DNA of 64,000 nt. Origin: Chthonomonadales bacterium. Its GTDB lineage: Bacteria > Armatimonadota > Chthonomonadetes > Chthonomonadales > CAJBBX01. The stretch lies in assembly GCA_037443035.1 (NCBI GenBank), contig JBBIPC010000006.1, positions 129,092-193,091 on the forward strand, written 5' to 3'. This document shows positions 24,044-39,660 of this stretch, piece by piece (within the stretch, counting starts at the first letter, position 1; each line of letters starts with the position of its first letter). The position numbers and the translations under genes were made by a program. The notes under the pieces were generated by a model, which saw only the letters and a list, made by a program, of their open reading frames with translations, searched no databases and was not told where the DNA came from.

Positions 24044-24071
24044 CATGAGGCTTCTACAGGAGGCCCGGACA

Positions 24072-27000
24072 ATGAGACAGACGACCCGATTTGCCGTCGT
24101 GCCGGCGGTGCTCGTGCTGACGTTAGCGACGGTAGGACCACCGAGTCTGGCACAGAGCGGCTCAAAGGCAGGCAAGTCCGGCAGCGGCAAGACCACGACG
24201 AGCCGGGGGAAAAGCGCCGGTGGTTCGAAAGTGAATACGTTGCCGGGTCTGCCATCGAGTAGCACCCGAACGGGTCTGCAGGTGGTTCGCTTGCAGGCTC
24301 CTCCGCCTCCACAGGAGAAGAAAGACGCGCCCCCCACGCAAAACGGCCAAGGTACTCCGCCACCGTCGCAGGGTGGGCAGGGCGCACCACCATCCCAGGG
24401 AGGGCCAACGCCACCGCCCGGTCAGGGGGATCAGGCGGCTCCGCCGCCCACGCAGACAGGCCAGGGGAACACACCCGTGCAGGGCGGTGAGAATGCTCCT
24501 GCCGCAGGCGGGGAAGGCCGATCCAGTCGTAGGAGCCGCCAGTCGGGCGGGTTTGGCGGCGGCTTCGGTGGCTTCGGTGGCTTCGGTGGTGGTGCGACGA
24601 TCACGATGGACTTCCGTGGAGCCGACATTGGCAACGTCTTGAAGTTCTTTTCCATGGCCACAGGTTGGCAGATAGTCCCCGATGCTAACCTGACGGGTCC
24701 TGTCACCATTATCAGCCCCAAGCCGTTGACGCTCGATCAGGCTTTCCAGGTACTCCAATCTACGCTGGAAGTGCGTGGCTACAGCGGTCAGATCGAGAAG
24801 CGCGGGGATACGACGATACTGAAGATCGTGCCGTTGGACCGCGCAGTGCAAAGCACCCCATTACTGAGCAGCCCCGAGGGGGGTGTTGTGCCGGATCAGG
24901 CGCAGGGGCAGGTGATCACGCAGGTCATTCCCATCGAGAATGTGGATGCGGCCTCACTGGCTCGCGAGCTCCAACCGCTCATCAATAAGGGAGCCAGCAT
25001 GGTGGGTAGCGCTGGAACGAACGCGCTCGTTGTCACCGACACGGCAACCAACGTGAAGAGGATCTCGGAACTGGTCAAGCTCCTCGACCGTGCAGCGAGT
25101 AATAACGAGCTTCGTATGTTCCGCCTCAAGCGAGCCGACGCGACCGACGTTGCCAGCGCAGTGAACTCACTATTCCGGCAGATCTACACGCGAGGGACGA
25201 ACCGTGGCATGCAGATGATGCCCGGCCAGCCCGGCATGCCACCAGGGATGCCGGGTATGCCGGGACAGCCACAGCCCAACATGCCCACGGGGCAGGAGCG
25301 AGGTGCCGTGGTCGCTGTTGCCGACACACGCACGAACTCGGTGCTCGTGGTAGCGTCGAAGGAAAACATGCAGCGGGTGGAGGACCTCATCAACAACCTC
25401 GATGACGAGAGCGCCGGGGCCCTAGAAACGAAGATCGTGAAGATGAAATACGCCAACGCCGTGGATGTGGCGAACACGATCAGCCAGGTCCTCACGGAGG
25501 CGGCGACAGCGCGGAGTACGTCAGGCAGAACTGGCGGCGCGAGCTTCTTCCAGCGGGTGTTCGGTATGGGCGGTGGCCAACAGCAGCAGACGCAGAGCAG
25601 CGGCGACCCCTTCGCCAAGGTCGTGGCTGACGCTCGGACGAACTCGCTCATTATCACTGCTACGGCTGAGAGGATGGCCCGCATTGACGAGATGATCGCC
25701 GCGCTGGATGTGGATGTGCCGGTCGAGACAACGACCTTTGTCATCCCGCTGAAGAATGCCCAAGCATCGGACCTGGCAGTCATCTTGGGTGACGCGTTCG
25801 GAACGGGTACCGGTTCCAGAAGCTCGGGCACCTCCTATGGAGTCATGTTCAACCCGTTCGGCACGACGCAACGCTCGAATCAGCGTCAGAACATCCAGCG
25901 ACGCCAGAGCACAACGGGGCGAACGACTGGGCGCGCCGCTCCCATCAATGCCCCAGGAACATCGCGTGCCTATCCCGACGAGGTGCACGGCACGCTGACG
26001 CCTGAAGGCTTCGTACCGGATGCAGAGCAGGATGATGATCTATCCGGACAGACACGGCAGTTCGTCTTCGGACAAGGCGGTCAGATGGGGTTCGGAGGGG
26101 GGAGGCAGGGCACGGCGACTCAGCCGCTCTACGGTCGCGGGCAGCAGGGGAACTTCGTCAACCTTCTCCAGTTCCGCAACAACGTCAACGTCGCCGCCGA
26201 TCCGTCCAGCAACAGCCTCATCGTGACGACGACGCCAGACACCATCGAGGAGCTGCGCCGCATCATCGCCCAGTTGGACACCGTCCCCAACCAGGTGATG
26301 ATCGAAGTTATCATTGCCGAGGCCAGCGTCAACGCATCGCAGAAGCTGGGCTTCCAGTTCGATGCTTCCGGTATAGGCAAGCTCTTCGGTTCACCCATCA
26401 CGCAGCAGGGCAACTCGAACTTCCCGCTGGGGTCCGCGGGTTCAACGTCCGCAAACATCACTTCACCGATATCGCCTGGTGTCCAGTACGGGGTACAGAG
26501 CGAGAAGTTCAACGCACTGGTTCAAGCGCTGAACAGCGACAACCGGGTGCACATCTTGTCCACACCTCGCGTCTTCACGTCCAACAACCAGCAGGCGCAG
26601 GTCTCGGTGACTACGCGAGTTCCCTATGCCACGAGCTCGTTCACAGGTGGGCTTAATATCGGCTCCAGTGTGACGTATGACTGGCTGGATGTCGGCATTA
26701 CCCTCGACGTGACGCCGAGGATAACGGCCGATGGTCTGGTGACAATAGATGTCGTCGCGACGGCCAGTGAGCTTCTCGGTTTCGACACACTGCAGAGCAG
26801 CGTTGACACCAACGGCCGCTCCACGAGCATCCTGGCACCTCGCACCTCGGACCGAACGACTGATACGTCCGTCACTGTGCGGGATGGCGAAATCGTCGCT
26901 CTGGCAGGGCTGATGCGGGATAGCAAGAACACGCGCATCGACAAGGTCCCCCTGCTGGGCGACATCCCGATCATAGGCAGCCTCTTCCGGACTAGTACGA

Positions 27001-27284
27001 CCAGCACAGAGAAGACGGAACTCATGATCTTCCTCGTGCCGCACGTCATCTCCGGCGACGCGTCGGCGAGGGCTATGACGGAAGATGTATCGAAGAACGT
27101 CCGGCGGTTGGTCCCCGAGCTGGAGAGAGAGCGTCCGGAGCTGAAGCCGCGACAGCAGACACCTCCGCAACACGGCCAGCAGACACCGCCGGAAGGCGGA
27201 CAACAGACACCCCCTGGGCAAGGTGGTCAGCAGACGCCACCACCCGGCAACACGGGCCAGCAGACTCCGCCGGCGAAGCCCTGA
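24072..27284 (+). CDS. gspD: Outer-membrane secretin (GspD)
   Basis: MDFRGADI N0 domain; repeated 'AD.RTNS.V/LI' N-domains; QVMIEVIIAE; DVGITLDVTPRI; VPLLGDIPIIGSLFR; TELMIFLVPHVI; RBS before ATG 24072. Confidence 0.93.
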   Translation: MRQTTRFAVVPAVLVLTLATVGPPSLAQSGSKAGKSGSGKTTTSRGKSAGGSKVNTLPGLPSSSTRTGLQVVRLQAPPPPQEKKDAPPTQNGQGTPPPSQGGQGAPPSQGGPTPPPGQGDQAAPPPTQTGQGNTPVQGGENAPAAGGEGRSSRRSRQSGGFGGGFGGFGGFGGGATITMDFRGADIGNVLKFFSMATGWQIVPDANLTGPVTIISPKPLTLDQAFQVLQSTLEVRGYSGQIEKRGDTTILKIVPLDRAVQSTPLLSSPEGGVVPDQAQGQVITQVIPIENVDAASLARELQPLINKGASMVGSAGTNALVVTDTATNVKRISELVKLLDRAASNNELRMFRLKRADATDVASAVNSLFRQIYTRGTNRGMQMMPGQPGMPPGMPGMPGQPQPNMPTGQERGAVVAVADTRTNSVLVVASKENMQRVEDLINNLDDESAGALETKIVKMKYANAVDVANTISQVLTEAATARSTSGRTGGASFFQRVFGMGGGQQQQTQSSGDPFAKVVADARTNSLIITATAERMARIDEMIAALDVDVPVETTTFVIPLKNAQASDLAVILGDAFGTGTGSRSSGTSYGVMFNPFGTTQRSNQRQNIQRRQSTTGRTTGRAAPINAPGTSRAYPDEVHGTLTPEGFVPDAEQDDDLSGQTRQFVFGQGGQMGFGGGRQGTATQPLYGRGQQGNFVNLLQFRNNVNVAADPSSNSLIVTTTPDTIEELRRIIAQLDTVPNQVMIEVIIAEASVNASQKLGFQFDASGIGKLFGSPITQQGNSNFPLGSAGSTSANITSPISPGVQYGVQSEKFNALVQALNSDNRVHILSTPRVFTSNNQQAQVSVTTRVPYATSSFTGGLNIGSSVTYDWLDVGITLDVTPRITADGLVTIDVVATASELLGFDTLQSSVDTNGRSTSILAPRTSDRTTDTSVTVRDGEIVALAGLMRDSKNTRIDKVPLLGDIPIIGSLFRTSTTSTEKTELMIFLVPHVISGDASARAMTEDVSKNVRRLVPELERERPELKPRQQTPPQHGQQTPPEGGQQTPPGQGGQQTPPPGNTGQQTPPAKP
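24561..24587 (+). repeat. 9-bp tandem repeat (GGCTTCGGT)x3 encoding GFG repeats in the secretin
   Basis: Directly visible in the sequence. Confidence 0.85.
27153..27281 (+). repeat. Five QQTPP peptide repeats at the secretin C-terminus
   Basis: QQTPPQHGQQTPPEGGQQTPPGQGGQQTPPPGNTGQQTPP. Confidence 0.9.
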
Positions 27285-27360: not shown

Positions 27361-28461
27361 CTACAGCTTCAACGCCGTGGAGACCGAAGCTTCCCGGACC
27401 TCGTCGGCGGTCACTTCCCTACCCAGCCTATCGGATAGGTAGATCCCCTCGCTGATGAGCATGGTCGCCAGGGCGGCTTCGGCGGTGGGCAGGAGCTCCA
27501 CCCGACCCTGCAGGGCGGCGATCCAATGATGCTGCGGCGAGTCGTAGGCGGACGTCTCTTCGTAGAGCTGGTGCCATCGCCAGTCCGCGCTGTCCAAGAG
27601 AAACGTCGCGTCCATCTCCATGTCGCAGACGGTGGTGTGGAACGAGAAGGGCTCCAGGCGCACGCCACCTTTGGACCCGAGAACGCAACTCCCCTCCAGG
27701 CCGCTTAGGTGCAGGGCCCAGGACTCGATGATGTCCAGGGTGATGTCGTCAGCCAACTTCACGAATCCCAGCCCCAGCTCCTCGACGTTGTACCCGCTGG
27801 ATTGGCGGCGGCCAGCGTCCATGTCGGTCTCTTGATAGACCTTGCCACTGATGCGGAGCACTTGGGGCAGGCCGAGCAGGTAGAGGATCCGGGCGATGTG
27901 ATAGACCCCCATGTCGTAGAGGGCGCCTCCCGCGGCAACCTCCTTCTTGACGAAGGACGCGGTGCCATAGCCATCCACGAAGGGCCTGCCTCGCCGCCGA
28001 AAACCTGAGGAGCGGGCATGGTAGAGGTGCCCGAGGTAGCCCCCGTCTATCAGGCGCTTGGCGGCTTTGGTTTCCTTGGAAAAAAGAGTCGAGAGCTGGA
28101 TGCTCAGCTTGCGCCCGCACTTCCGGGCTGTCTCGTACATCCGCAGGGCGTCTACGTACGAGCCGGCCATGGGCTTCTCGCAGTAGACATGCTTGCCGGC
28201 CTCCAACGCGGCGATGGTGACCGGCGCGTGCAGGTTGTTGTGCAGGCAGATGTCCACGGCCACCACTTCCGGATCGGCAAGAAGATCCCGGAAGTTGGTG
28301 TAGGTCCGCGGGATGGAGAAACGCTCGGCGACGCGGTGCAGCTCGTCTTGGGCGATGTCGGCGGCCGCGACGGCCTTGGCCCCCTCGATGCGGGCATAGT
28401 TCTCCAGATGGTGCTTGCCGATCTGGCCCACACCGATGATCCCGATTGGCAAAGGTTCCAT
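27361..28461 (-). CDS. Gfo/Idh/MocA family NAD(P)-dependent oxidoreductase
   Basis: [11 protein letters not shown]ossmann motif, [22 protein letters not shown]. Confidence 0.92.
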
Positions 28462-28504: not shown

Positions 28505-29566
28505 CTACGCGAAGCTGCCCAGCTGCCGTGCCAGGTTGACGATATGCTGAAAGCTCTCCAGACTGACGCTGGACGGGACGGAGTGATCCGAGCTGAAGAT
28601 GTAGCCGCCGTCCTCCTTGAGGACCGGTACGACCCGGCGCATTTCGGCCTCGATGGCATCCAGGTCGTCCCAGAGCACCGCGTTGACGCCGCCGTGTAGG
28701 ACAAGACGGTCGCCGTAGCGCTGCTTGATGGCCACGGGGTCCATGCCGGCCTTGACCTCCAATGGGTTGAGGGCGTCGATGCCAGCGTCGAGGAACTCCG
28801 GGATGAAGGGGTTCACGTCACCACAGGAATGGAGGTGGACCCAGACGCCCCGGGCGTGGGCCCAGTCGGCGACGCGCTTGTGCAGGGGTTTGAGAAGCTG
28901 CCGGTAGGTCCGAACCGAGAAGAACTGGCTGTGCTTGTAACCCATGTCGTCGGGCCAAGTCACCACGTCGAAATGGTAACCGGCGTCCCAGACCCGTTCG
29001 AGGAGCGCCAGGTTGACATCCAGGAAGTGCCCGAAGATGTCCGCGAGCCATTCGGGGTCTTCGGCCAGGGCCAGCAAGACGCGCTCGGTACCCACGGTCC
29101 ACGAGTGGGTGACGTCGAAACCGAACCACAGGTGCCCCTCGATCCAGTAGCCCTCTTCGCGCCAGCGGCGGTAGTTTTGTCGGAGGTGATCCCAGGGGAT
29201 GCGGTCGTCGGAAGGGGTCATGCGGGCCTTGGCCTCCCGCCACGTGTCCCAATCCACGATGGTGAAGTCCAGGAACTCCGGCACGCCACCGGCATGTTTC
29301 CAGTTCTTCATGGTGACGCCGTAGCTGGACGTGCTGATGACGTAGTCCTCGGTCTCGTCCAGAACGCGGACCGGATATCGCGGGCTGATATCTACCGAGA
29401 TACCTGCCACGCGGTCGAGGTCGAAATACTCCACGAAGCTGAGATCTTCCGGCATGCCCTCGCGCCGCCACCGCTCGATGGTGGCCCCCCACGGGATGTC
29501 AATGATGGGCACGCGGTCGGCTTCGCGGTGTTGGTACATGCGGGCGAAGCGCTCGCGGCTGGTCAC
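28505..29566 (-). CDS. Uroporphyrinogen decarboxylase/MtaA-fold family protein (copy 3)
   Basis: TSRER...ADRVP N-terminus, DDMG, HSCG, LNPLE, GGYIFSSDHS; GTG 29566 overlaps the upstream stop. Confidence 0.88.
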   Translation of the reverse strand: MTSRERFARMYQHREADRVPIIDIPWGATIERWRREGMPEDLSFVEYFDLDRVAGISVDISPRYPVRVLDETEDYVISTSSYGVTMKNWKHAGGVPEFLDFTIVDWDTWREAKARMTPSDDRIPWDHLRQNYRRWREEGYWIEGHLWFGFDVTHSWTVGTERVLLALAEDPEWLADIFGHFLDVNLALLERVWDAGYHFDVVTWPDDMGYKHSQFFSVRTYRQLLKPLHKRVADWAHARGVWVHLHSCGDVNPFIPEFLDAGIDALNPLEVKAGMDPVAIKQRYGDRLVLHGGVNAVLWDDLDAIEAEMRRVVPVLKEDGGYIFSSDHSVPSSVSLESFQHIVNLARQLGSFA

Positions 29567-30306
29567 TTCGCAGATACCTCCAATCCCTCGCCGTCCAGGA
29601 TCACGTTGACACTGCAGCGCATGTTGTCGGGATCGCGAACCCAGTCGAGATATGGAGCGAGCCGAGCAGCGCAGTTGACGCTGTTGTGGGCCAGCACCAG
29701 ACCGCCTGGGACGAGGCGATCGTAGCATCCCTGCAGGATGTCCAGGTAGATGGCCTTTCCGCGGACCGCATCGCCGTCGGCGTCGAGGTAGAGCAGGTGC
29801 AGGTCCTCGGGGAAGTCGCGGGCCACGTCCACGGCGTCGGCGGCGATCACTCGGGCCACACCCGTGAGATCGAGCCGGCGGACGTTGCGCTCGGCGCGCT
29901 CGGCTTCGTGTGGCACGATCTCCACGCCGATGAGGTTCTTGGCCGTGTAACAAGCGCCCGGACCCACGGCTGCGCCGGCGTTGGAGATGAACGTGTTGCC
30001 ACAGAACACGCCGGCGGCCAGCATGTTTGCGGGTTGCGCGATGGCGTTGATGGCGTAGATCAGGCGCTGCTGGCGGGGCGTGATGGCGGTCCAGGGTATC
30101 TCGAACTTCTCGGCGACGGCAGCACGATGGCCGAGGAATCGCTCGTGGTCGTAGCGGGTATGGGGCAGGATGCCCAAGTCGCACAAGTACTCGAGAGCGC
30201 CCTGAACGACGGCGATCTCGGCCTCGAGGGGTTCCAGCTGCAGATGCGGCTGCCGCATGTCCATGCGGTATTCCGCCCAATCCGGCGCGCGATACTCATA
30301 GCTCAA
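29563..30306 (-). CDS. Class I SAM-dependent methyltransferase (O-methyltransferase-like)
   Basis: Motif I-like 'MLAAGVFCG', 'IGVEI', 'LLYLDAD', 'LVPGGLVLAHN'. Confidence 0.78.
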   Translation of the reverse strand: MSYEYRAPDWAEYRMDMRQPHLQLEPLEAEIAVVQGALEYLCDLGILPHTRYDHERFLGHRAAVAEKFEIPWTAITPRQQRLIYAINAIAQPANMLAAGVFCGNTFISNAGAAVGPGACYTAKNLIGVEIVPHEAERAERNVRRLDLTGVARVIAADAVDVARDFPEDLHLLYLDADGDAVRGKAIYLDILQGCYDRLVPGGLVLAHNSVNCAARLAPYLDWVRDPDNMRCSVNVILDGEGLEVSAK

Positions 30307-31075
30307 CGCACTTCTCCGAAGCGATGATGTGGGAGTCCAGTGGTGCCGTGATGCGATGGCCCGGGGGAACGGTCAGGAACTCCTCGGGGTCCCATTCCCC
30401 GTTCACCAGCTTGCGAAGGAGACGCAGGTCGCCCTGAACCTTCTCGAACTTCCAGCCGCGCTCCTGGGCTTCCCGGCCCGTCTGCTGCTCGAAGCGGTCG
30501 TCCGGCTCCACACCCATCTCGATGAATGTGAACTGGGAGTAGTTGCGGGTGGTGTCGCAGAGCATCTCGTAGAGGTACTCGGCGTTGTCCTCGCCGTACT
30601 TCTCCACCAGCTCCGTGTAGGTGCGGTCCATGCCCACGCGGTGCTGGACCGTCTGCGGCATGAGATCCTCGGCGATGCCGCCCCGCTCGATCCAGCCGGA
30701 AGTCTTGAAATAGACCCCGGGGTGCGTGTGAAAGTACTCTTCGTAGCGTTGGCGGCTTCCCAGGAAGAGGGTCATACAGTCGTGGGCGCGGGGCACCACG
30801 AGAGGCGCGGTGGTGGCCACGAGGCCTGCGATGCCGTTGTTGCATAGACCGTATCCGAGGAGCACGGCGTCGTAGACACCCTCGGGGATACAGTCCAAGA
30901 CGGCTTGGAGGCGGCTCCGCATGGGTTCCGCGCCCAAGTCATGGAGGCCCTTGGCCACGAACTCGATGTCCACTGTGTGAGGGGAACTGGCGACGACGTG
31001 GCAGAACTCCCGGTAGAGAACTTCGCACGCTACAAGTCGGAGGCGCATGCTCGCCGGCTCCTGGCTATGCGCCAT
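30296..31075 (-). CDS. DUF1638-family protein
   Basis: VAC.VL.RE, GLHD, LGYGLCNNG, PRAHDCMTLFLGS, TSGWIE; usually found in corrinoid loci. Confidence 0.85.
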   Translation of the reverse strand: MAHSQEPASMRLRLVACEVLYREFCHVVASSPHTVDIEFVAKGLHDLGAEPMRSRLQAVLDCIPEGVYDAVLLGYGLCNNGIAGLVATTAPLVVPRAHDCMTLFLGSRQRYEEYFHTHPGVYFKTSGWIERGGIAEDLMPQTVQHRVGMDRTYTELVEKYGEDNAEYLYEMLCDTTRNYSQFTFIEMGVEPDDRFEQQTGREAQERGWKFEKVQGDLRLLRKLVNGEWDPEEFLTVPPGHRITAPLDSHIIASEKCVEL

Positions 31076-31943
31076 GTTGCACCCTCCGCGCGAGCTCCCG
31101 GATGAACTCGGGCCCGGTGCCGCAGCATCCACCCACGAACGCCGCGCCCGCTTGGATCAGCTCTACGGCCTCTTCGACGAACTCTGTGGGCGTTTGGGCA
31201 TAGACGGCTCGACCGTCCACAATGGTGGGCAGTCCGGCGTTGGGCTTGGCCCAGACCGGCTGACCGGAGGCCTGACGGAGTCGCTCCACGATGGGGCGCA
31301 TGGCAGCCGGACCGTGGCCGCAGTTGGTCCCGACGATGTGGGCGCCTGCGGCCAGGAGGGCTTCCGCGGCCTGCTCGGGGGTGGTGCCCATGATGGTCCG
31401 ATCCCCCGACTTGCCCGCACCGTAGGTCATACAGGCGACGACGGGCAGGCCGGTGGCGGCGGCGCAGCGAACGGCGATGGCTGCTTCGTCGAGGTCGCTC
31501 ATCGTCTCGATGACGAAACCGTCCACTCCTCCCTCGGCCAACCCCGCTACCTGCTCCTCGAAGGCCGCGTTGGCCTCTTCCGCGGTGATCTCTCCCATCG
31601 CAACGAGCTTGCCGGTGGGGCCGATGGATCCGAACACGAGGGCACGGTCGGCGGCGGCCTGGCGCGAGATTGCAGCACCGGCGCGATTGATCTGGCGGGC
31701 TTCGTTTGCGAGCCCATGGCGGTCGAGGGTTATGCGAGAGGCCCCGAAGGTGTTGGTCAGAATGATGCGGCTGCCAGCCTCGACATAGGCGCGGGCGACA
31801 GCCTGGACACGGTCGGGGTGGGCCAGGTTCCAGGGGTCCGGCGGGCTACCCACGGGCAGTCCCCGCTGTTGCATTTGGGTACCCCAGGCGCCGTCGGTGA
31901 GGATGGGCGCTTCATCGAGGAGGCGCATCAGGACGGGATGCAT
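31065..31943 (-). CDS. Stand-alone homocysteine S-methyltransferase (MetH Hcy-binding domain)
   Basis: DGAWGT, TNTFG, GSIGPTG, IETMSD, Zn ligands GTNC and GGCCGT, KPNAGLP; no pterin, B12 or activation domains fused. Confidence 0.93.
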   Translation of the reverse strand: MHPVLMRLLDEAPILTDGAWGTQMQQRGLPVGSPPDPWNLAHPDRVQAVARAYVEAGSRIILTNTFGASRITLDRHGLANEARQINRAGAAISRQAAADRALVFGSIGPTGKLVAMGEITAEEANAAFEEQVAGLAEGGVDGFVIETMSDLDEAAIAVRCAAATGLPVVACMTYGAGKSGDRTIMGTTPEQAAEALLAAGAHIVGTNCGHGPAAMRPIVERLRQASGQPVWAKPNAGLPTIVDGRAVYAQTPTEFVEEAVELIQAGAAFVGGCCGTGPEFIRELARRVQHGA

Positions 31944-33118
31944 GGCTGACCCTCGGCGTCGTACCGGCCGTACTGCCGGACGGTTTCGTACATGGCTGCG
32001 ATGTTCTCGACCGGCGTCCCGGGCGATAGGTTGTTGCCTTCGCGCAGGATGAAGCGCCCCCCCTGCATGATCCCGCTGCGGAGGATGCGCAACGTCTCTT
32101 GGCGGACTTCGTCGGGAGTGGCCGTGACCAGGAAAGGCGCTTCCGGACCGCCCAGGATCTGCACGTCTGGCCCCAGGGCCTGGCGCATCCACGTGAAGTC
32201 CACCGGGTACCCGGTGTCGAACGAGACAACGCCGAGCTCCTCATGGATGATCGGAAAGTGGCGGGAGGCGTCTCCGCAGAGGTGGATCGTCCGGTGCACC
32301 ATGGTGCCGAAGGTGTCGAACAACCGTCGGTGGTACGGCAGGACGTGTTCGCGGTAGGCTCGGACCGAGATGAGGGCGATGCTGTCGTCGGCGATGGAGT
32401 AGTGGTCGTGGGGATATGTGACGCCGAAGCGCTCCTTCCACGCTCGGACGCGTTCGATGGTGGCCGTGGTGATGAAGTCCAGCAGGCGGTGGAGGCGCTC
32501 CGGCTCGGCGGCCATCATTTCGCACACGGTTCGCGCGCTGAAGAGGTTGCACGCTACGGTCATGGGGCCGTCCGTACCCATGCCCGTGTACGGGGTGCCT
32601 ACGGTGATGGGCCGGTCCAGGAACGTCTCGTTCTCGGCCAGGGCTTTCATCCGCTCGTAGTACTCGAGGGCGCGGGCCATGATGCCCCCGAAGGGGTCCG
32701 GGACGCCGCGGTCCATGACCCGCTCGGGACACTCGGCGTAGACAGGGGCCGAATCGGGGACCTGCTCGTCGCGATACTCGATCGGGCAACCGAACCACGC
32801 AGCTTCGTAGTAGTTCTGGAAGTCCACCCAGACGAGCCATTCCTTGGGCATGCCCATCTCCAGATCCTGGAGTAGGTAGTGCCGGATCCAGTAGGAGAAG
32901 CGGAGCTGGGCATGGAACATGGTGTCGGGATCTTCCGAGTAGGTCCGGAAGTCTACGTTCAGCGAGTTGGCGCCCTTCTCGCAGATCAGGTAGCGCGGGT
33001 TGATGCCCAGCAACATGGGCACGCGCACGGGCCGGCGAGCGTGATAGGCATCCCACACCGCGCGGACTTCTTCGTTGTGCGTATCGTAATCGATGGGCGG
33101 ATTGGCGATTTCGCTCAT
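31928..33118 (-). CDS. Uroporphyrinogen decarboxylase/MtaA-fold family protein (copy 2)
   Basis: 'GP.TVAC', IADD, IHLCGD, GRFILREGNNL.PGTP.ENI.AM C-terminus. Confidence 0.85.
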   Translation of the reverse strand: MSEIANPPIDYDTHNEEVRAVWDAYHARRPVRVPMLLGINPRYLICEKGANSLNVDFRTYSEDPDTMFHAQLRFSYWIRHYLLQDLEMGMPKEWLVWVDFQNYYEAAWFGCPIEYRDEQVPDSAPVYAECPERVMDRGVPDPFGGIMARALEYYERMKALAENETFLDRPITVGTPYTGMGTDGPMTVACNLFSARTVCEMMAAEPERLHRLLDFITTATIERVRAWKERFGVTYPHDHYSIADDSIALISVRAYREHVLPYHRRLFDTFGTMVHRTIHLCGDASRHFPIIHEELGVVSFDTGYPVDFTWMRQALGPDVQILGGPEAPFLVTATPDEVRQETLRILRSGIMQGGRFILREGNNLSPGTPVENIAAMYETVRQYGRYDAEGQPCIPS

Positions 33119-34203
33119 GTTTCTTTCCATCCCATGCGGTCCAGCAGTTTCCGGGCCGCCTCTTCCGTGGGAGCGTGGACCATGAGCAGCATACCCTCGG
33201 CGCCCACGGCCTCAATGAGGGGCTCGACTTCCTCGGGGGCCACGCCGATGGCCTGGACCGACTTGCCTGCGGCTCGGATGCGCCGGTAAAGGTCGTACCA
33301 TTCGGGCGAACCGCCGCCCGGCCGAGGGTACTGTGGCGTCCACTCGATGGCTTGCAGGGTCTCCATGGCCAGGAGGTTATCCAGCTGGGGCATGGCCTGG
33401 GTGCCGTCCAGGTGGAACATGGAGTGATCGAGCCATCGGCATTGGCGGGTCATGGCGGGCATGACGAAGCGCCGGAAGGCGGCTGGGCTGATGGCGCAGC
33501 AGATGTCGCACTGGATTTTGGCCACTCGCCCGTGCCCCCAGATGCGAAACGCCGAGAAGCAGCTACCGCCCCAGGGGTCGCGCGCCATCTCGTAAAGGAG
33601 GTCGTAGGCCTGGAAGAAGGCCTCGTTGATCTCCTCGATTTTCTCGAGTACCCATTCGGGGCGCTCGACCAGGTCAACGAGCACGGTCTGCGGGTCGCGG
33701 AGTTGGGCCAGCGTGTCCAGGTTCTCGATGAGATCCGGCAGCGACACGAGGTAGCGGCCGCGGGCTCGTTCCACTGCCGCGTGGACAAGCCGCATGTGCG
33801 CCTCCCACCAATAGCCCTGGGGTGCGAACTGAAGAGGCGGATGGTTGTCGGGGTCCGGGATGATGGGGTCGTACCAGACCGTGGTCTCAGCCAGCCGCCC
33901 ACCGCAACCCAGGAAGAGGCCGAGGCTGCCCGGGCCGATCTGGGAATCGAACATGGGAAAGGCCACGCCACCGAAGTAGGTGTTGGCGATGGCGTGTTCT
34001 TGTTGCTGTAGGCGGTACTCGGCGTTCAGCCACTGGGTCTCGAGGTCGGGTGGCGGAGGCGGAGCGGGCGCATCCCACAAGGGCTTCTCGCGTGGTGCTG
34101 TCACGTGCAGCGCCAAGCCTTCGCCCCGCCACCACGACTCCCACGCGTCCCGGGCGGCGGCCCAGTCCGGCTTACCGAGGAGCTCCATGGCCTGATCGGT
34201 CAC
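33115..34203 (-). CDS. UROD/MtaA-like TIM-barrel protein (copy 1, HLDG type)
   Basis: 'GPG.LG.FLG', 'TVWY', 'D.L.QLR', QCD...ISP..F, FHLDG, GKSVQ. Confidence 0.72.
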   Translation of the reverse strand: MTDQAMELLGKPDWAAARDAWESWWRGEGLALHVTAPREKPLWDAPAPPPPPDLETQWLNAEYRLQQQEHAIANTYFGGVAFPMFDSQIGPGSLGLFLGCGGRLAETTVWYDPIIPDPDNHPPLQFAPQGYWWEAHMRLVHAAVERARGRYLVSLPDLIENLDTLAQLRDPQTVLVDLVERPEWVLEKIEEINEAFFQAYDLLYEMARDPWGGSCFSAFRIWGHGRVAKIQCDICCAISPAAFRRFVMPAMTRQCRWLDHSMFHLDGTQAMPQLDNLLAMETLQAIEWTPQYPRPGGGSPEWYDLYRRIRAAGKSVQAIGVAPEEVEPLIEAVGAEGMLLMVHAPTEEAARKLLDRMGWKET

Positions 34204-35609
34204 GAGTTCAGGCCGTACTCCTGGGGCAAATACGGCGCGTCGGCGTGTTGCTTCAACATGGCCGCGATGAACGCGTCTTCATCTTCTGGGAGCTCGTCGG
34301 CAGCGCGGCGGAAGCGGTCCAGCCAGCGCCGTTCGTTGGGCAGGATGCGCAACGTGCCCTGATGGTCAGCGCGGACGAGTTCCTCCAAGGTCGCGAGGAC
34401 AGCTCGGCGGGTTCGCAGGTACGGCGAAGGTTCGGCCGCGATCTGCTCCGACAGTCGCAGCACGACGTCGGGGCGCAGCACGTAGGCCTGGGGGTCCAGG
34501 GCTGCGTCCGATTCGACAAGCCAGTCGCGCATGGTGCGCGCCCCCTCTGGGGTGCGAGCCGCCGTGTTGAGAAGGCGGCAGTCGTAGGCGAGTTGCTCCA
34601 GGCTGACCACCGGCGCGTTGGCGCTGAGCAGGCGGACGTTCTGGACGGATTCGTTGGACCAGCAGTCGCAGACGGCCTGGGCGATGTTGCCCACGGTGCT
34701 GAGGTGGGCGCAGGCCGCGGACCGGCCTTCCATGGAGATGGGCACGCCGGCGATGGCCTTCATGTACGGTCCTTCGTAGGCACAGTCCTTGCTCGGGCCC
34801 ACCGCACCAACCTCGTAGGCGACCAGTCCACGCGGCACCGAGGCGACGCGGTCCACGGCGGCCAGGACGCGGGGTATCATGCGCTGTTCGGCCAACACCA
34901 TGGCCGTGTTGGCGAAGCCGCAGGCCGTGTCCCCGGCCGGGACGATCTTGGCCTCGCGGCAGGCTGCGACGATCTCGGTCCAGAGGAAGCGCATGTCCCG
35001 CGGCGCGAGCACGCCCAGCGCGTAGACGATGCCGGTCAGGTCGGCATCCATAAGCGCCTGGTCGTGGATCTCCTTGCCGCCGGTGGACTCGATGGCAATC
35101 ATGTCGGCACCCGCTTCCCCTGCCATGCGGAAGAACCGCACCATGCCCTCCCAATACGAGCCGCTTCGCATGACCGGCGGCCGGACATGGTCGCGGGTGT
35201 CGTTGGGGGTGAGCCGAAGCGCCGAGCGGAGGCCGTGCTGTTCGTGGAAGCGGTTCAGCGTGTCGGCCAGCAGGCTGGTGATCTCGGCGCCCCATTCGGG
35301 GTTCACGGTCATGGGCGGCAGGGTCTCGAACTCGACCAGCAAGGCAGGCACTTCGAGGGCCACGGTCCGTCCGCAGACGCCTTCGATGATCTCAGAGTAC
35401 TGAGCGCGCACGTCCTTCCATGTCGATGGATTGATGTCTATGGGGGGCAGCGTGAAGTTGATCTCCGGCACCACGGTTCCCTCGCCCAGGACGAGCCCCC
35501 TCCCGCATGCGAGCGGACGTGGGGCATGGCCGTAAACGAAATCGTCGAGGGAACGAATGGCGGGCGCCGTGATTCCCGCTCCCCCACCTGTGTTCGAGGT
35601 TGGGTGCAT
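34200..35609 (-). CDS. mtaB: Methanol:corrinoid methyltransferase, MtaB family
   Basis: G.VVPEINFTLP, IESTGGKE, GDTACGFANTAM, GPSKDCAYEG, PISMEGRSAACAH, WSNESV, YDCRLLN; putative Zn ligands Glu/Cys/Cys present. Confidence 0.9.
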   Translation of the reverse strand: MHPTSNTGGGAGITAPAIRSLDDFVYGHAPRPLACGRGLVLGEGTVVPEINFTLPPIDINPSTWKDVRAQYSEIIEGVCGRTVALEVPALLVEFETLPPMTVNPEWGAEITSLLADTLNRFHEQHGLRSALRLTPNDTRDHVRPPVMRSGSYWEGMVRFFRMAGEAGADMIAIESTGGKEIHDQALMDADLTGIVYALGVLAPRDMRFLWTEIVAACREAKIVPAGDTACGFANTAMVLAEQRMIPRVLAAVDRVASVPRGLVAYEVGAVGPSKDCAYEGPYMKAIAGVPISMEGRSAACAHLSTVGNIAQAVCDCWSNESVQNVRLLSANAPVVSLEQLAYDCRLLNTAARTPEGARTMRDWLVESDAALDPQAYVLRPDVVLRLSEQIAAEPSPYLRTRRAVLATLEELVRADHQGTLRILPNERRWLDRFRRAADELPEDEDAFIAAMLKQHADAPYLPQEYGLNS

Positions 35610-35645
35610 GGAAGCGCTCCTACTCTATTGTGTTGTCTTGCGAGA

Positions 35646-35683
35646 GTGCGTCGGGCGCGCTACCGAGGACGCGCCCTACGCAC
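35646..35683. repeat. Intergenic GC-rich hairpin (REP-like, GTAG foot on the minus strand)
   Basis: Minus strand: GTGCGTAGGGCGCG-10 nt loop-CGCGCCCGACGCAC. Confidence 0.5.
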
Positions 35684-35714
35684 GGGAAAGCCGAAAGGTG
35701 GATGACCGACTGAG

Positions 35715-36353
35715 CTACGCTGCGCCGACGAGCTGCCGGGCCACCCGGACGGCACCGCTGGCATTGTCGCTGAAACCGTCGGCACCGATATCGTCAGCGT
35801 ACCGCTGGGTCACGGGTGCGCCGCCGATCATGGTCTTGATCGTGCCCTTGAGACCAGCCTTCTCCAGCGCCTCGACGGTTGTCTTCATGCCAGGCATTGT
35901 GGTGGTCAGGAGGGCTGACATGGCGATGATCTGGGCGCCCCGCTCCTTCGCTGTCTCGATGAACTTCTCAGGAGCCACATCCACTCCGAGATCAATGACC
36001 TCGAAGCCACCGCCCTCAAGCATGGCCGCCACGAGGTTCTTGCCGATGTCGTGCAGGTCGCCGCGCACGGTGCCGATAACCACCTTCCCGACGGGCTTCG
36101 CCCCCGTCTCTACTAGCTTGGGGCGGATCAGCTCCAAGGCCGCCTTCATGGCGCGTGCCGAGATGAGGAGTTCCGGCACGAAGTACTCGTTCGCTTCGAA
36201 CAAGCGGCCAACTTCATCCATGGCGGGGATCATGTACTTCTGAAGGAGCTCTTCGGGGTTGGCGCCCTCTTCCAGAGCTTGCTTGACCGTAGACTCGGCA
36301 AGATTCTTGTTGCCTTCGAGTACGGCGGTGTAGAGGGCCTGCAAGTCAGTCAT
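35715..36353 (-). CDS. Corrinoid (cobalamin-binding) protein, MtaC-like
   Basis: Cap domain 'M.EVG.LFE..EYFVPELL'; DLHDIGKNLV (DxHxxG); SALLTTTM; IGGAP; GAGG RBS before ATG 36353. Confidence 0.95.
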   Translation of the reverse strand: MTDLQALYTAVLEGNKNLAESTVKQALEEGANPEELLQKYMIPAMDEVGRLFEANEYFVPELLISARAMKAALELIRPKLVETGAKPVGKVVIGTVRGDLHDIGKNLVAAMLEGGGFEVIDLGVDVAPEKFIETAKERGAQIIAMSALLTTTMPGMKTTVEALEKAGLKGTIKTMIGGAPVTQRYADDIGADGFSDNASGAVRVARQLVGAA

Positions 36354-36397: not shown

Positions 36398-36664
36398 TTA
36401 GCTTCGTGGAAAGCGTTCGGGATGCAGCTCGGCTGAGCGGCCTACGAGAACGTCCTCTTCGACTTCGTGCTCGACATCTGACTCGATGGCCTCGACGGGG
36501 CATACCTCGGCACAGTGAGGCGACTTGTAGAAGCCGAAGCACTCCGTGCAAAGACCCGAATCAATTGTGTATTCACCGTCAACCTCAGAAATGCCATCGT
36601 TCGGGCATTCCTCCAGGCACACACCACACTGTATGCACCGTTCCTGATTGATGCGTCGTGCCAT
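36398..36664 (-). CDS. 2[4Fe-4S] ferredoxin, YfhL/Allochromatium-like
   Basis: CIQCGVCLEECP and CTEC-x8-CAEVCP, plus a C-terminal extension. Confidence 0.9.
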   Translation of the reverse strand: MARRINQERCIQCGVCLEECPNDGISEVDGEYTIDSGLCTECFGFYKSPHCAEVCPVEAIESDVEHEVEEDVLVGRSAELHPERFPRS

Positions 36665-36796: not shown

Positions 36797-39328
36797 TCAA
36801 CGAGATCCTTGCCGCAGCCGCACGAGTGCGTGACTGCCAACCCAACGCACGCTTGGTTCGCCGGCCTTCCGGGACCACGGCAGAGTATACCTGACAGAAG
36901 GGAACAGGTCGAAGCAATTGTCGCGAGTATCCCAGAGTCCGTGAAGATCCACGCAGACTCCCCATGCGAACGCTGTACAGTCCAGCACGATGCCGTCGGC
37001 AGTTCGCTGAAGCGTGACTGGTTCTATCGCCATCTCCAGATCGTGAAATCGCTCCACAAACAGCCGATGCTGGGCCACAATTCGGTCTCCGTCGACGAGC
37101 ATGCCAAATGCTGCAGAGTGACGGGTACCGACAGCCGTCCATGTGGAACGCGGTATCTTGGCGAGTTGGACGGAGCCGTTCGGAGGTAGCTCCACAGCGA
37201 TGTCGTTCGACAGCGGATAACCGCCGGCGAGAAGGAAGATCCCGTAACGCAACGTGCCCGTAAACGGACTAGGACTGTCGTTGACGCCGTACCACGCGAT
37301 TTCGTCCCCTTCTTCCACAACGACCACGACAACCGGCTGGAATGCCCGCCGAACAGGATGATACGCTAGACGCCTTCGCAGGTAGTAGTCCACAATCGTC
37401 CAAGAGTGCGTCGCTGGCCACGAGTCGTTGTACATCCAGAAGATAGCCGACGAGCTGCTGAACATGCGACGGCGGTAGTTCGAGATGTACTCGACAAGTC
37501 CTTCAGCTTGCAACAAACCGCTGAGAAGAGCGTAGTCATCCATAGACTGCTGAAGCGGATCCAGGCCGGTCCAAAATCGGAACGTTTCGTAGGCGCGTCC
37601 TATCTCGCCCGGCCGCGATGCCCGGTAACCGATCGGATTGTCATGATGGACCCAGCTCGGGCTGAGCAGATGCTGTTCGTGTTCGGGCAGAAAGGCTCGC
37701 AGCGTGACTGGCAGACCTGCGCCGAGCACGCCTCCCTCATTGGCAAACCGGTCCACATAGTTGCGGTACCTGTGGAAATCCGCTGGTCCAGGATCCAGTA
37801 TCGAGACACCCCAGGGATGCTGATCACCCGTTGTCGGGTCGTTGGGCGGTGCGTAATCAGCGGACCACGGAGAGCTAGGCCAGTATGGACGTGTGCCGTC
37901 TTCCGCAGCCAGGATGGCAGGAATGTGATGGTGGAACAGCGCATGGTGCGGGGCGACGGGACGGTGCTGGCGATAGCCCCAAGCGTAGTCACCCCAGTCC
38001 ACCTCATTGTTGCCACACCAGACGATGAGGGACGGATGGTGCGCCATGCGGCGAACCGCCTCGGTTACCTCAGCTTCCACCTCGCTGACGAAGGCCGGGT
38101 CATCGCCCGGGTATTTCGCGCATGCAAAGAGGAAGTCGTGCCATAGCATGATCCCGGCTTGGTCGCATGCTTCCAGCAAAGCCTCTGGGGCGAACACTGC
38201 CCCTCCCCAGACGCGCAGTGTGTTGAAGTTCGCGTCGCGAGCGTTCTGAACGAGCTTCTCGTACGTCTCCCGCGATACTTGAGAAGGGAATACACTGGGC
38301 GGAACCCAGTTCGCTCCTTTGCAGAAGACCGGACGCCCGTTGATGTGGATAACGAAGTAGCGTCCGCCTTCTGGATGTGGGGATTGCTCGATGTGCACGC
38401 GACGAAAGGCCGTCTTCCGTCGCACGACTTGTTCGTCGTCGCCGCACCTCAAGACAACTCGAACCTCGTAGAGCCTCTGACTACCTTGACCGGAAGGCCA
38501 CCAGAGTTCTGCGTTGTCAAACGGGAGAGTTACCTCGTGACTTGTCATTGTGGACTCGACTGCGGACTTCACCTCGACCTCATCCGAGACACCTCGCTCC
38601 GGCAGTGAGGCGATCATCCTGGCGCGCAAGTCGTCCGAATGACGCGGCCAGCGCACGAACAAGCGGCAGCGCAGGGAGCCCTGCATGAGGGAGTCATCCA
38701 ACCTGGCGATGACGGAGGCGGAATCGACAAGTGGGATGGTGGAGTGTTCGAGGCGGACGTTGCCCAAGATCCCAACACTCATGAGCCGCGGATTCCAGTC
38801 CCATCCGCACTGGTACTGAGCCTTCCGCAGGAGAGGTCGGCGCGTCATGCGAGCGTAATGATCGAAGCCGTAGGGCGCCACTGGGGTGTCATTGACAGCA
38901 TGTAACCCACTCTCGACCATGACCGCGATGGTGTTCGTGCCGCTTCGGAGCCGGTCGGTGACGTCGAAGACGGCCTTCCGATGCGAGTTAGCATGGCGAC
39001 CGATGACCTGGCCATTGATCCACACCGATGCATCATGCTCCAGCCAGTCGAAGACGAGCCATTGGGACCCCTCTAGAGCATCGTCCGTCAGAACGAATTC
39101 CCTATGGTAGACCCAGAACTGCTCTTCTACCCATCGAGCGCCGAGACTGTTCAGCCCCACGTCTGGGTCGTCGAGGATCCCCGCTTCCATGAGCGCAATA
39201 TGAACCGGTCCGGGAACCCGTGCAGGCAACCACACGTGTCCTCGGGGATTGTCGTGAAGCAGCGCCTCAGGGCCATCCTCCGACCACGATAGCTGCCATA
39301 CGCCGCTCAGATCCAACGTGCCGCGCAT
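36797..39328 (-). CDS. Glycoside hydrolase family 2, beta-mannosidase-like
   Basis: RKAQYQCGWDW, FCKGANWVP, LRVWGG, WHDFLFAC, WCGNNE, FANEG, FWMYNDSWP. Confidence 0.9.
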   Translation of the reverse strand: MRGTLDLSGVWQLSWSEDGPEALLHDNPRGHVWLPARVPGPVHIALMEAGILDDPDVGLNSLGARWVEEQFWVYHREFVLTDDALEGSQWLVFDWLEHDASVWINGQVIGRHANSHRKAVFDVTDRLRSGTNTIAVMVESGLHAVNDTPVAPYGFDHYARMTRRPLLRKAQYQCGWDWNPRLMSVGILGNVRLEHSTIPLVDSASVIARLDDSLMQGSLRCRLFVRWPRHSDDLRARMIASLPERGVSDEVEVKSAVESTMTSHEVTLPFDNAELWWPSGQGSQRLYEVRVVLRCGDDEQVVRRKTAFRRVHIEQSPHPEGGRYFVIHINGRPVFCKGANWVPPSVFPSQVSRETYEKLVQNARDANFNTLRVWGGAVFAPEALLEACDQAGIMLWHDFLFACAKYPGDDPAFVSEVEAEVTEAVRRMAHHPSLIVWCGNNEVDWGDYAWGYRQHRPVAPHHALFHHHIPAILAAEDGTRPYWPSSPWSADYAPPNDPTTGDQHPWGVSILDPGPADFHRYRNYVDRFANEGGVLGAGLPVTLRAFLPEHEQHLLSPSWVHHDNPIGYRASRPGEIGRAYETFRFWTGLDPLQQSMDDYALLSGLLQAEGLVEYISNYRRRMFSSSSAIFWMYNDSWPATHSWTIVDYYLRRRLAYHPVRRAFQPVVVVVVEEGDEIAWYGVNDSPSPFTGTLRYGIFLLAGGYPLSNDIAVELPPNGSVQLAKIPRSTWTAVGTRHSAAFGMLVDGDRIVAQHRLFVERFHDLEMAIEPVTLQRTADGIVLDCTAFAWGVCVDLHGLWDTRDNCFDLFPSVRYTLPWSRKAGEPSVRWVGSHALVRLRQGSR

Positions 39329-39660
39329 GTTGATCCCTCTCCATTCATGTCCGGCGCGCATTCACCAGTGCCATCACGGCATGGCAGCGGTGCCCGGCAC
39401 GCGTATAGTACACTATGGGCTGACGAGCTACGCTGGACGGGAGGATGGTCGCACGGTGGGCATCCCTGCTCAGGATGTCGTCGAAGATTCAGAAGGCCAC
39501 GGGGACAGGGGTTCTGCCCAGGAACCTACATCGCAGTATGCTAAGGGACGAAGTCGGGGTTCTCGCTAGAGGGAGCGACCGGTTGTGGAGCCCTCGAGGA
39601 ATGAGCAGCCCAGCGCTCTTCCTCAAACAGGAGCGTGATCGGGGAGTATGGCTCCGCCAC

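What the first reader, a model, noticed from the sequence alone, without database searches (positions are those of the whole stretch)
31065..36353. Possible folate-independent, methanol-driven split methionine synthase
Seen: MtaB with its putative Zn ligands (IESTGGKE, GDTACG, PSKDC), a DxHxxG corrinoid protein, and a stand-alone Hcy-binding domain with intact GTNC/GGCC Zn ligands. Known: MetH consists of Hcy, pterin, cobalamin and activation domains, and split versions exist. Inference: MtaB substitutes for the methyl-THF (pterin) domain, giving methanol -> CH3-Co(III) -> homocysteine -> methionine/SAM. This would be C1 assimilation without folate.
Basis: inference. Interest (0 to 1): 0.7.

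Follow-up and report, generated by a model that had tools for sequence, protein, structure and literature searches.

The report
B12 methyl hub feeding methionine synthesis
This bacterium carries a widely conserved vitamin-B12-protein operon that likely passes methyl groups from methanol, and likely also from methyl ethers such as methylated sugars, onto homocysteine to make methionine with no folate step; it would be an extra route, because the genome also encodes the ordinary folate-dependent enzyme, and it is untested.

Summary
The three genes are real and their motifs intact, but the unit is larger. It is a ten-gene operon: ferredoxin, corrinoid protein, MtaB, two UroD-like barrels, homocysteine methyltransferase (Hcy-MT), DUF1638, a SAM methyltransferase, a third UroD-like barrel and a Gfo oxidoreductase. 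The corrinoid activase lies elsewhere. The genome has one stand-alone corrinoid protein, 40 UroD-like proteins and no stand-alone folate methyltransferase, but it also has full MetH and MetF. All 20 related genomes with this MtaB type have the Hcy-MT. Four near-complete genomes keep Hcy-MT and activase without MtaB, two of them shown in the same operon. Best reading: a corrinoid hub is loaded by several demethylases, with methanol (MtaB) as one optional input, and unloaded onto homocysteine. It is an accessory methyl supply, not C1 growth and not the cell's only methionine synthase. Boldest open reading: MtaB runs backwards and releases methanol, making the system a B12-dependent ether hydrolase for methylated sugars. 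Closest known system: Ruegeria/Phaeobacter MtgBCDE, minus the pterin module. The scan reported the same idea before on other DNA (e1-5149847).

The parts
36398..36664 (-). 2[4Fe-4S] ferredoxin (YfhL-like, 88 aa); likely electron donor for corrinoid reactivation
   Evidence: Fer4 families and NF033683 E 6e-22, below cut-off; upstream of the corrinoid gene in 6 of 80 MtaB loci
35715..36353 (-). Stand-alone corrinoid protein (cap + B12 domain, 212 aa, DxHxxG at D99-H101-G104); lacks the N-terminal extension of archaeal MtaC; the only stand-alone one found in the genome
   Evidence: MtaC models matched only from positions 37-45; the only other hit is fused MetH
34200..35609 (-). MtaB-family methanol:corrinoid methyltransferase (469 aa; E174, C230, K274, C276)
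   Evidence: PF12176 E 1.4e-156; NF040651 387 bits, below cut-off 720; 2I2X alignment; conservation in 80 of 80
33115..34203 (-). UroD-like barrel A (362 aa, His-x-Asp 'HLDG' metal motif); candidate O-demethylating methyltransferase
   Evidence: no Pfam hit; found at E 6e-9 by a profile of the other 38 UroD-like proteins, next non-member 0.04, and 115 of 120 homologues at E<1e-5; ESM Atlas neighbour cluster 54% PF01208
31928..33118 (-). UroD-like barrel B (396 aa; His-x-Cys, Asn in place of the third Cys of MtaA); candidate methyl donor enzyme
   Evidence: PF01208 E 5e-31; MtaA 4AY7 alignment E 3e-7; ligands
31065..31943 (-). Stand-alone MetH-type homocysteine methyltransferase domain (292 aa; E146, C208, N235, C273, C274)
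   Evidence: PF02574; T. maritima MetH best PDB match; invariant columns
30296..31075 (-). DUF1638 protein (259 aa), linked genetically to B12 reactivation in Phaeobacter
   Evidence: PF07796 E 7e-35; Price et al. 10.1101/192971; fused to the Hcy-MT in L040
29563..30306 (-). Class I SAM methyltransferase (Methyltransf_24), accessory
   Evidence: PF13578 E 2e-8; in 5 of 80 MtaB loci and in the MtaB-less operons
28505..29566 (-). UroD-like barrel C (353 aa; His-x-Cys...Asp-His); candidate methyl donor enzyme
   Evidence: PF01208 E 4e-17; ligands; 73% identical in an MtaB-less operon
27361..28461 (-). Gfo/Idh/MocA oxidoreductase (sugar-dehydrogenase family), last gene of the run
   Evidence: PF01408/PF22725; same position in L007, L009, L083 and L134, L136

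Best explanation
The operon encodes one corrinoid protein, a methanol methyltransferase (MtaB), three UroD-like barrels and a stand-alone homocysteine methyltransferase that likely work as a methyl hub: the UroD-like enzymes would strip methyl groups from methyl ethers (probably O-methylated sugars), MtaB would add methanol as one optional donor, and the homocysteine methyltransferase would move the methyl from cobalt to homocysteine to give methionine with no folate step. Shown: the genes, their coupling, the conserved metal and cobalamin ligands, the absence of a stand-alone pterin methyltransferase, the presence of full MetH and MetF, and the co-occurrence pattern. Inferred: Co(II) is reactivated by the RACo ATPase encoded on contig C8 together with DUF1638 and the ferredoxin; the other 37 UroD-like proteins of the genome use the same single corrinoid protein; the route supplements MetH and supplies only the methionine/SAM methyl group; MtaB gives net forward flux only at roughly 0.1-1 mM methanol or more.
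For: Genes from MtaB to UroD-C overlap by 4-16 bases. One stand-alone corrinoid protein, one MtaB and one DUF1638, one RACo and 40 UroD-like proteins in the genome; PF00809 hits are only FolP and fused MetH. In 61 genomes of the order, 20 of 20 with this MtaB type have the Hcy-MT orthologue and RACo, and 24 of 25 RACo genomes have the Hcy-MT. PF01208 matches have median 26 in the 25 RACo genomes and median 0 (maximum 7) in the other 36. Among 80 MtaB loci: corrinoid 46, UroD-like 32, RACo 23, DUF1638 21, Hcy-MT 18, pterin methyltransferase 1. In 50 non-Armatimonadota MtaB genomes: 38 have a stand-alone (or DUF1638-fused) Hcy-MT and 3 more are cut by contig ends; a candidate stand-alone THF methyltransferase was seen in 4. 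G037 has a minimal operon corrinoid-MtaB-UroD-A-HcyMT-DUF1638 and only 2 UroD-like matches. An HcyMT-DUF1638 fusion occurs in L040. 37 of 40 UroD-like proteins lack His-Cys-Cys, which PMC10418091 links to O- rather than S-methyltransfer. Carbohydrate-catabolic neighbours: 17 of 34 UroD loci versus 6 of 34 random loci, Fisher p=0.0096. Precedent for a shared corrinoid hub feeding a split Hcy domain: PMC12478193.
Against: No activity, expression or complex model. The genome does not need this route for methionine (MetH, MetF, glycine cleavage, FolP). No SAM riboswitch at the operon; the one found precedes metK. No pectin methylesterase PF01095 was found as an in-house methanol source. With recalled free energies, MtaB alone would methylate only about 2% of the corrinoid at 1 mM methanol, and methanol was a poor donor in a reconstituted MtaABC (38% conversion at 5% v/v; PMC13618148). 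Homocysteine is a small anabolic sink for 40 putative demethylases. A His-Cys-Cys MtaA-like protein beside RACo offers another outlet. Nine of the 50 non-Armatimonadota genomes showed no stand-alone Hcy-MT (completeness not given). The carbohydrate family list was chosen after seeing the test set, and related genomes are not independent.
Confidence: 0.5

Rival explanations
1. Same hub, but MtaB mainly runs backwards: UroD-like enzymes demethylate O-methylated sugars, MtaB hydrolyses methyl-cobalt to methanol to recycle the corrinoid at catabolic rates, and the Hcy-MT only skims methyls for methionine. The net reaction is B12-dependent hydrolysis of methyl ethers.
For: No catabolic fate for methyl groups was found: no Fhs, no stand-alone THF methyltransferase, no PQQ alcohol dehydrogenase over cut-off. 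40 UroD-like proteins are enriched beside sugar genes. MtaB is reported reversible in vitro (passage of PMC13488299). With the recalled -7 kJ/mol for methylation, hydrolysis is favoured below about 60 mM methanol. The 4 RACo genomes without a high-scoring MtaA-like hit (G031, G037, G038, G057) all have MtaB, and the 4 without MtaB all have one (His-Cys-Cys checked in G015, G022, G034); with these small numbers chance would also give this.
Against: G015, G020 and G022 have 28 or more UroD-like matches and no MtaB, so a large UroD set does not require it. G037 keeps MtaB with only 2 UroD-like proteins. The same sequence family includes an acetogen-type locus with pterin methyltransferase and MTHFR (L057), where the forward direction is expected. 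Substrates are unknown.
Confidence: 0.25
2. The main methyl acceptor is a thiol other than homocysteine (sulfide, giving methanethiol, or a small thiol), via the His-Cys-Cys MtaA-like protein encoded next to RACo; MtaB, the corrinoid protein and that MtaA form an MtaABC-like system and the Hcy-MT is secondary.
For: C8:105536-106519 has His-Cys-Cys and sits beside RACo; orthologues at 56-59% identity sit beside RACo in G015, G022 and G034. PMC10418091 shows such proteins methylate selenide and sulfide.
Against: It is not in the operon here and lies near MtaB in only 5 of 80 loci, against 18 for the Hcy-MT. No high-scoring hit in G031, G037, G038 or G057, which keep MtaB and the Hcy-MT.
Confidence: 0.1
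3. One reading: a dedicated three-part methanol-driven methionine synthase in which MtaB replaces the pterin domain and the other genes are bystanders.
For: 20 of 20 co-occurrence of MtaB with the Hcy-MT; no pterin module; minimal operon in G037.
Against: The operon persists with an intact Hcy-MT and no MtaB. UroD-like genes are translationally coupled between the parts. Seven genomes have the Hcy-MT without MtaB. Full MetH is present.
Confidence: 0.08
4. Folate is involved after all or the Hcy-MT is independent: either the pterin domain of the fused MetH exchanges methyl with the free corrinoid protein in trans, or the Hcy-MT uses betaine or S-methylmethionine directly.
For: MetH with a pterin domain is present here and in most MtaB genomes (39 of 50 have a long-frame PF00809 match). 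NF005718 (betaine-Hcy name) scores 222 bits.
Against: The NF005718 score is below its cut-off of 338, and PMC12478193 reassigns that type of protein to a corrinoid-dependent module. BHMT and MmuM-type structures rank far below MetH. The Hcy-MT is fused to DUF1638 in L040. No Fhs to oxidise the methyl further.
Confidence: 0.07

Closest known systems
Split methionine synthase / glycine-betaine methyltransferase MtgBCDE with RamA-like activase and DUF1638 (Phaeobacter inhibens, Ruegeria pomeroyi, Sinorhizobium meliloti; 10.1101/192971, PMC12478193)
   Same: Stand-alone cap+B12 protein as a shared hub, stand-alone PF02574 domain, RACo and DUF1638, substrate-specific first methyltransferases.
   Different: No pterin module (MtgD); the donors are MtaB and UroD-like barrels, not MttB-family MtgB; full MetH coexists; the host is an Armatimonadota-type carbohydrate degrader.
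Methanol methyltransferase MtaBC(A) of Methanosarcina (PDB 2I2X, 4AY7) and of acetogens
   Same: MtaB family over its full length with conserved E164/C220/K267/C269 equivalents; adjacent corrinoid gene.
   Different: Below the NCBIfam MtaB cut-off; the corrinoid protein lacks MtaC's N-terminal domain; no adjacent CoM- or THF-methyltransferase; no Fhs; D219 of 2I2X is Ala in 80 of 80 homologues.
Type 1 mlp gene clusters (Kountz and Balskus, PMC10418091)
   Same: Several UroD-superfamily proteins with a corrinoid protein and no THF methylase; a link to methionine was proposed for some.
   Different: The operon's UroD-like proteins lack His-Cys-Cys; the activase is on another contig; MtaB, Hcy-MT and DUF1638 are present.
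Folate-independent core methionine synthases MesA/B/C/D (PMC7857596)
   Same: Concept of methylating homocysteine from a corrinoid protein without folate; that paper speculates that some Methanosarcina MesC use other corrinoid proteins.
   Different: Those are MetE-type (PF01717), not found here; this one uses the MetH-type PF02574 barrel.

Membership tests
Split MetH (Phaeobacter/Ruegeria type) | Stand-alone Hcy-binding domain PF02574 with three Cys | tested here: met
Split MetH (Phaeobacter/Ruegeria type) | Stand-alone cap + B12-binding protein | tested here: met
Split MetH (Phaeobacter/Ruegeria type) | Stand-alone pterin-binding methyltransferase PF00809 | tested here: not met
   only FolP and fused MetH in the genome
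Split MetH (Phaeobacter/Ruegeria type) | RamA-like activase and DUF1638 | tested here: met
   RACo on C8; DUF1638 in the operon
Split MetH (Phaeobacter/Ruegeria type) | Required for methionine prototrophy | not testable with these tools
   unlikely, since a 1228-aa MetH with intact motifs is present
MtaABC methanol methyltransferase system | Full-length MtaB with conserved Zn-site residues | tested here: met
   ligand roles recalled
MtaABC methanol methyltransferase system | Score above the curated MtaB equivalog cut-off | tested here: not met
   387 versus 720 bits, NF040651
MtaABC methanol methyltransferase system | MtaC-type corrinoid protein with N-terminal docking domain | tested here: not met
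   212 aa; MtaC models match from positions 37-45; domain described in PMC9842639
MtaABC methanol methyltransferase system | Second methyltransferase to CoM or THF | tested here: inconclusive
   no pterin type; a His-Cys-Cys MtaA-like protein lies elsewhere, acceptor unknown
MtaABC methanol methyltransferase system | Methanol-dependent corrinoid methylation | not testable with these tools
   needs an assay
Type 1 mlp gene cluster | At least two MtaA-like proteins with His-Cys-Cys | tested here: not met
   operon proteins are H-D, H-C-N and H-C-H
Type 1 mlp gene cluster | Ram/RACE gene within 2 kb | tested here: not met
   RACo is on contig C8
Type 1 mlp gene cluster | No THF methylase within 20 kb | tested here: met
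Core methionine synthases Mes A-D | MetE catalytic domain PF01717 | tested here: not met
   no match in the genome
BHMT / S-methylmethionine Hcy-MT | Closer to BHMT or MmuM than to MetH, with donor-binding residues | tested here: inconclusive
   similarity ranks MetH far higher; donor-binding residues were not aligned one by one

The most novel reading that the evidence does not exclude
A previously undescribed oxygen-independent way to demethylate O-methylated sugars: dozens of UroD-like demethylases load one corrinoid protein, MtaB works as a methylcobamide hydrolase that releases methanol, and the homocysteine methyltransferase salvages a share of the methyls as methionine. Polysaccharide-degrading Armatimonadota, Verrucomicrobiota, Acidobacteriota, Planctomycetota, Sumerlaeota and others would then be methanol producers, and their mtaB genes would mark methanol release rather than methylotrophy.
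Probability: 0.25. Interest if true: 0.8.

Novelty: new variant of a known kind. Interest (0 to 1): 0.52.

Why it matters
mtaB in metagenomes is read as a marker of anaerobic methylotrophy, yet this widespread MtaB group sits in carbohydrate degraders that mostly show no THF or CoM methyltransferase and instead keep a homocysteine methyltransferase. If the hub model holds, it gives a folate-free shortcut from environmental methyl groups to methionine. It would also give a testable function to a large unannotated family (40 UroD-like paralogues in one 3.8 Mb genome). If MtaB runs backwards, it answers how anaerobes could remove ether methyls from sugars without an oxygenase, and it changes the sign of these organisms in methanol budgets. 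All parts are small, separately encoded proteins, so the question is directly testable in vitro.

Tried and rejected
A profile of UroD-like A found nothing meaningful in the PDB (best E 0.13). The profile comparison is circular (the second alignment contains the query), so one search was used instead. No RNA holder was listed for the operon. No Rfam match in the window; promoter and terminator scans were at chance level. The 375-aa frame from GTG 32192 was rejected as the Hcy-MT start: homologues align from the ATG at 31943. No CobS and no MetE-type domain were found. Considered and rejected: sole methionine synthase; type 1 mlp cluster; growth on methanol. Nine paper searches listed no description of an MtaB-to-homocysteine system or of corrinoid-dependent sugar O-demethylation; the library lacks most subscription papers. 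The paper I recall for MtaB thermodynamics is not held.
Full report
Observation. MtaB aligns end to end with M. barkeri MtaB (2I2X, E 2e-87); E174, C230, K274 and C276 correspond to E164, C220, K267 and C269 (their role as the Zn site is recalled) and are invariant in 80 of 80 homologues. The Hcy-MT is closest to the Hcy domain of T. maritima MetH (E 4e-49), well ahead of BHMT (7.5e-24) and the MmuM type (2.4e-8); its three Cys are invariant in 18 of 18 homologues. The corrinoid protein is short and lacks the N-terminal domain that helps MtaC dock on MtaB (PMC9842639, passages).

What was missed. Two UroD-superfamily barrels lie between MtaB and the Hcy-MT. The run is ferredoxin, corrinoid protein, MtaB, UroD-A, UroD-B, Hcy-MT, DUF1638, class I methyltransferase, UroD-C and Gfo oxidoreductase (36664 to 27361), with overlaps of 4-16 bases from MtaB to UroD-C. 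UroD-A has no Pfam hit, but a profile built from the other 38 UroD-like proteins finds it at E 6e-9, next non-member 0.04. The closest MtaB loci (77%) are titled Chthonomonadales, Armatimonadota.

Genome context (3.76 Mb, 100% complete). There is a full MetH (1228 aa, motifs intact) and a YitJ-like Hcy-MT/MTHFR fusion, with FolP and glycine cleavage, so the ordinary folate route is there. PF00809 matches only FolP and MetH: no stand-alone THF methyltransferase. Not found: Fhs, MetE-type domain, CobS, pectin methylesterase PF01095, PQQ alcohol dehydrogenase over cut-off. Found: one RACo activase on C8, one stand-alone corrinoid protein, one MtaB, one DUF1638, a heme-copper oxidase subunit, pyruvate formate lyase and 40 UroD-like proteins by my own gene calls and profile. 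Only 3 of the 40 have His-Cys-Cys, one of them beside RACo; the operon's three have H-D, H-C-N and H-C-H. PMC10418091 (parts 1-3 of 6 and passages read) states that His-Cys-Cys marks S-methyltransferases and that O-methyltransferases replace one or both Cys. Neighbours within two genes (125 of 135 scanned) include a carbohydrate-catabolic family at 17 of 34 UroD loci, against 6 of 34 random loci (124 genes scanned), Fisher p=0.0096. I chose the family list after seeing the test set, one control hit is the same GH38 gene that flanks a UroD locus, and accessory genes cluster anyway, so this is a modest signal. No riboswitch lies at the operon; the SAM-I riboswitch found precedes a metK-like gene, named from a recalled motif.

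Distribution within the order (61 genomes with the own one). MtaB is in 22; I set aside G024 and G026, a higher-scoring other type, which leaves 20. The Hcy-MT orthologue (54% identity or more, 276 bits or more; weaker stand-alone hits such as G003 and G004 not counted) is in 27, and RACo in 25. All 20 have both the Hcy-MT and RACo; 24 of 25 RACo genomes have the Hcy-MT. PF01208 matches (capped at 28, true HemE included) have median 26 in RACo genomes, with 19 of 25 at 13 or more, and median 0, maximum 7, in the other 36. G015, G020, G022 and G034 (98-100% complete) have RACo and Hcy-MT but no MtaB. In G015 and G022 the operon is the same gene for gene from the corrinoid protein to the Gfo gene, with MtaB missing between the corrinoid gene and UroD-A; in G015 the proteins are 53-80% identical and the Hcy-MT motifs intact. 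Conversely, G037 has corrinoid-MtaB-UroD-A-HcyMT-DUF1638 and only 2 UroD-like matches. Related genomes are not independent.

Distribution beyond the order. Of 106 MtaB relatives the best 80 loci were kept; the titles span Armatimonadota, Verrucomicrobiota, Acidobacteriota, Planctomycetota, Sumerlaeota, Kiritimatiellales, Bacteroidetes, Bacillota and others. Within up to 10 kb (many loci cut by contig ends): corrinoid 46, UroD-like 32, RACo 23, DUF1638 21, Hcy-MT 18, His-Cys-Cys-type MtaA-like 5, pterin methyltransferase 1; that one is a Bacillota locus with MTHFR (L057). L040 has an HcyMT-DUF1638 fusion. I searched the genomes of 50 of the 61 non-Armatimonadota loci (11 on short contigs left out). 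A close Hcy-MT orthologue (51% or more) was in 23, a more distant stand-alone one in 15, 3 were cut by contig ends, and 9 had none or only fused forms. A long-frame, MetH-like pterin match was in 39; a candidate stand-alone THF methyltransferase in 4 (G080, G089, G106, G110); five partial second FolP-like matches were not classified. Completeness of these genomes is not given.

Mechanism. The constant core is corrinoid protein, RACo, DUF1638, UroD-like barrels and Hcy-MT; MtaB is frequent but dispensable. I therefore read the system as a hub. First methyltransferases (the UroD-like proteins, probably acting on methyl ethers, and MtaB acting on methanol) methylate Co(I), and the Hcy-MT transfers the methyl to homocysteine (inferred; confidence 0.5). 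This mirrors MtgBCDE of Ruegeria (PMC12478193, parts 1-2 of 6 and passages) and the split synthase with RamA-like and DUF1638 proteins of Phaeobacter (10.1101/192971, passages), but without the pterin module. Without Fhs or a THF methyltransferase the methyl carbon has no evident route beyond methionine and SAM, so this is methyl supply, not methylotrophic growth. The direction of MtaB is open. It is reported reversible in vitro (PMC13488299, passage). With recalled values (-7 kJ/mol for corrinoid methylation, -27.5 kJ/mol for thiol methylation as a proxy), MtaB alone gives about 2% methylated corrinoid at 1 mM methanol, and methanol to methionine is favourable only from about 0.1-1 mM upward, depending on the Met/Hcy ratio. 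Methanol was also a weak donor in reconstituted MtaABC (PMC13618148, passages). Hence the rival (0.25) that MtaB discharges surplus methyls as methanol, which would make the system an ether hydrolase. Against it, genomes with 28 or more UroD-like matches do without MtaB, and G037 keeps MtaB with only two. The other rivals are a thiol outlet through the MtaA-like protein (0.10), the literal three-gene model (0.08) and folate involvement or a corrinoid-independent Hcy-MT (0.07).

Comparison and novelty. The system works like a split MetH fed by substrate-specific methyltransferases, but it fails membership of the Phaeobacter type (no pterin subunit), of type 1 mlp clusters (no His-Cys-Cys, activase remote) and of the Mes families (PMC7857596, abstract and passages; PF01717 absent). 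Folate-independent methionine synthesis from corrinoid proteins is known as a concept. Bacterial mtaB in metagenomes is reported (PMC11264602, 10.64898/2026.08.27.747368, PMC8048578; passages). The one carbohydrate-demethylation paper listed concerns P450 monooxygenases (PMC6292453, search listing only). PMC12450230 (passages) added nothing. Nine searches listed no paper on MtaB coupled to a homocysteine methyltransferase; the library lacks most subscription papers, and no supplements were read. Earlier notes of this scan describe the same layout in a soil Verrucomicrobium (e1-5149847) and related ones; they are unchecked and are not counted as support. New here: the MtaB-less version of the same operon, the genome-wide link between RACo and the UroD expansion, and the methanol-release reading. 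Verdict: new variant of a known kind, interest 0.52.

Noticed in passing
window 30296-31075: DUF1638 has invariant C17, H45, C78, D99 and C100 across 23 homologues, a possible metal or Fe-S site that would fit a redox role in corrinoid reactivation.
   Followed up: no
L040:3763-5433: Natural fusion of the Hcy-MT and DUF1638 in an Acidobacteria record.
   Followed up: partly
G000:C8:104022-106519 (L112): RACo activase preceded by a His-Cys-Cys MtaA-like gene, among Gfo, FGGY kinase and 3-keto-disaccharide hydrolase genes; the same pair occurs in G015, G022 and G034.
   Followed up: partly
L113, L122, L124, L126, L129: DUF6785/DUF6784 membrane proteins (weakly OPT-like) lie next to or within two genes of UroD-like genes in 5 of 34 loci, versus 1 of 34 control loci; candidate transporters for the substrates.
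   Followed up: no
G000:C19:72254-74086: YitJ-like Hcy-MT/MTHFR fusion with intact Cys motifs, so the genome holds three PF02574 domains.
   Followed up: partly
L138:10512-12254 (G024:C17): UroD-like domain fused to a B12-binding domain (CmuA-like layout) next to a different MtaB type, a second corrinoid gene and RACo.
   Followed up: no
L063-L085 (Kiritimatiellales/Verrucomicrobiota loci): A subgroup of MtaB loci carries a CobW-type GTPase (11 of 80 loci) and an AraC regulator (13 of 80), and L075 has an AdoCbl riboswitch.
   Followed up: no
window 20986-27284: Type II secretion / type IV pilus-like operon ending in a GspD secretin (TIGR02517 over cut-off), convergent with the methyl operon.
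   Followed up: no
window 36797-39361 and 39445-41418: GH2 beta-mannosidase-like gene directly upstream of the operon on the same strand (a GH2 gene is also upstream in L134) and a GH84-like NAGidase gene beside it.
   Followed up: no
G000:C4:78317-78424: The one SAM-I riboswitch found precedes a metK-like gene, not metH.
   Followed up: partly
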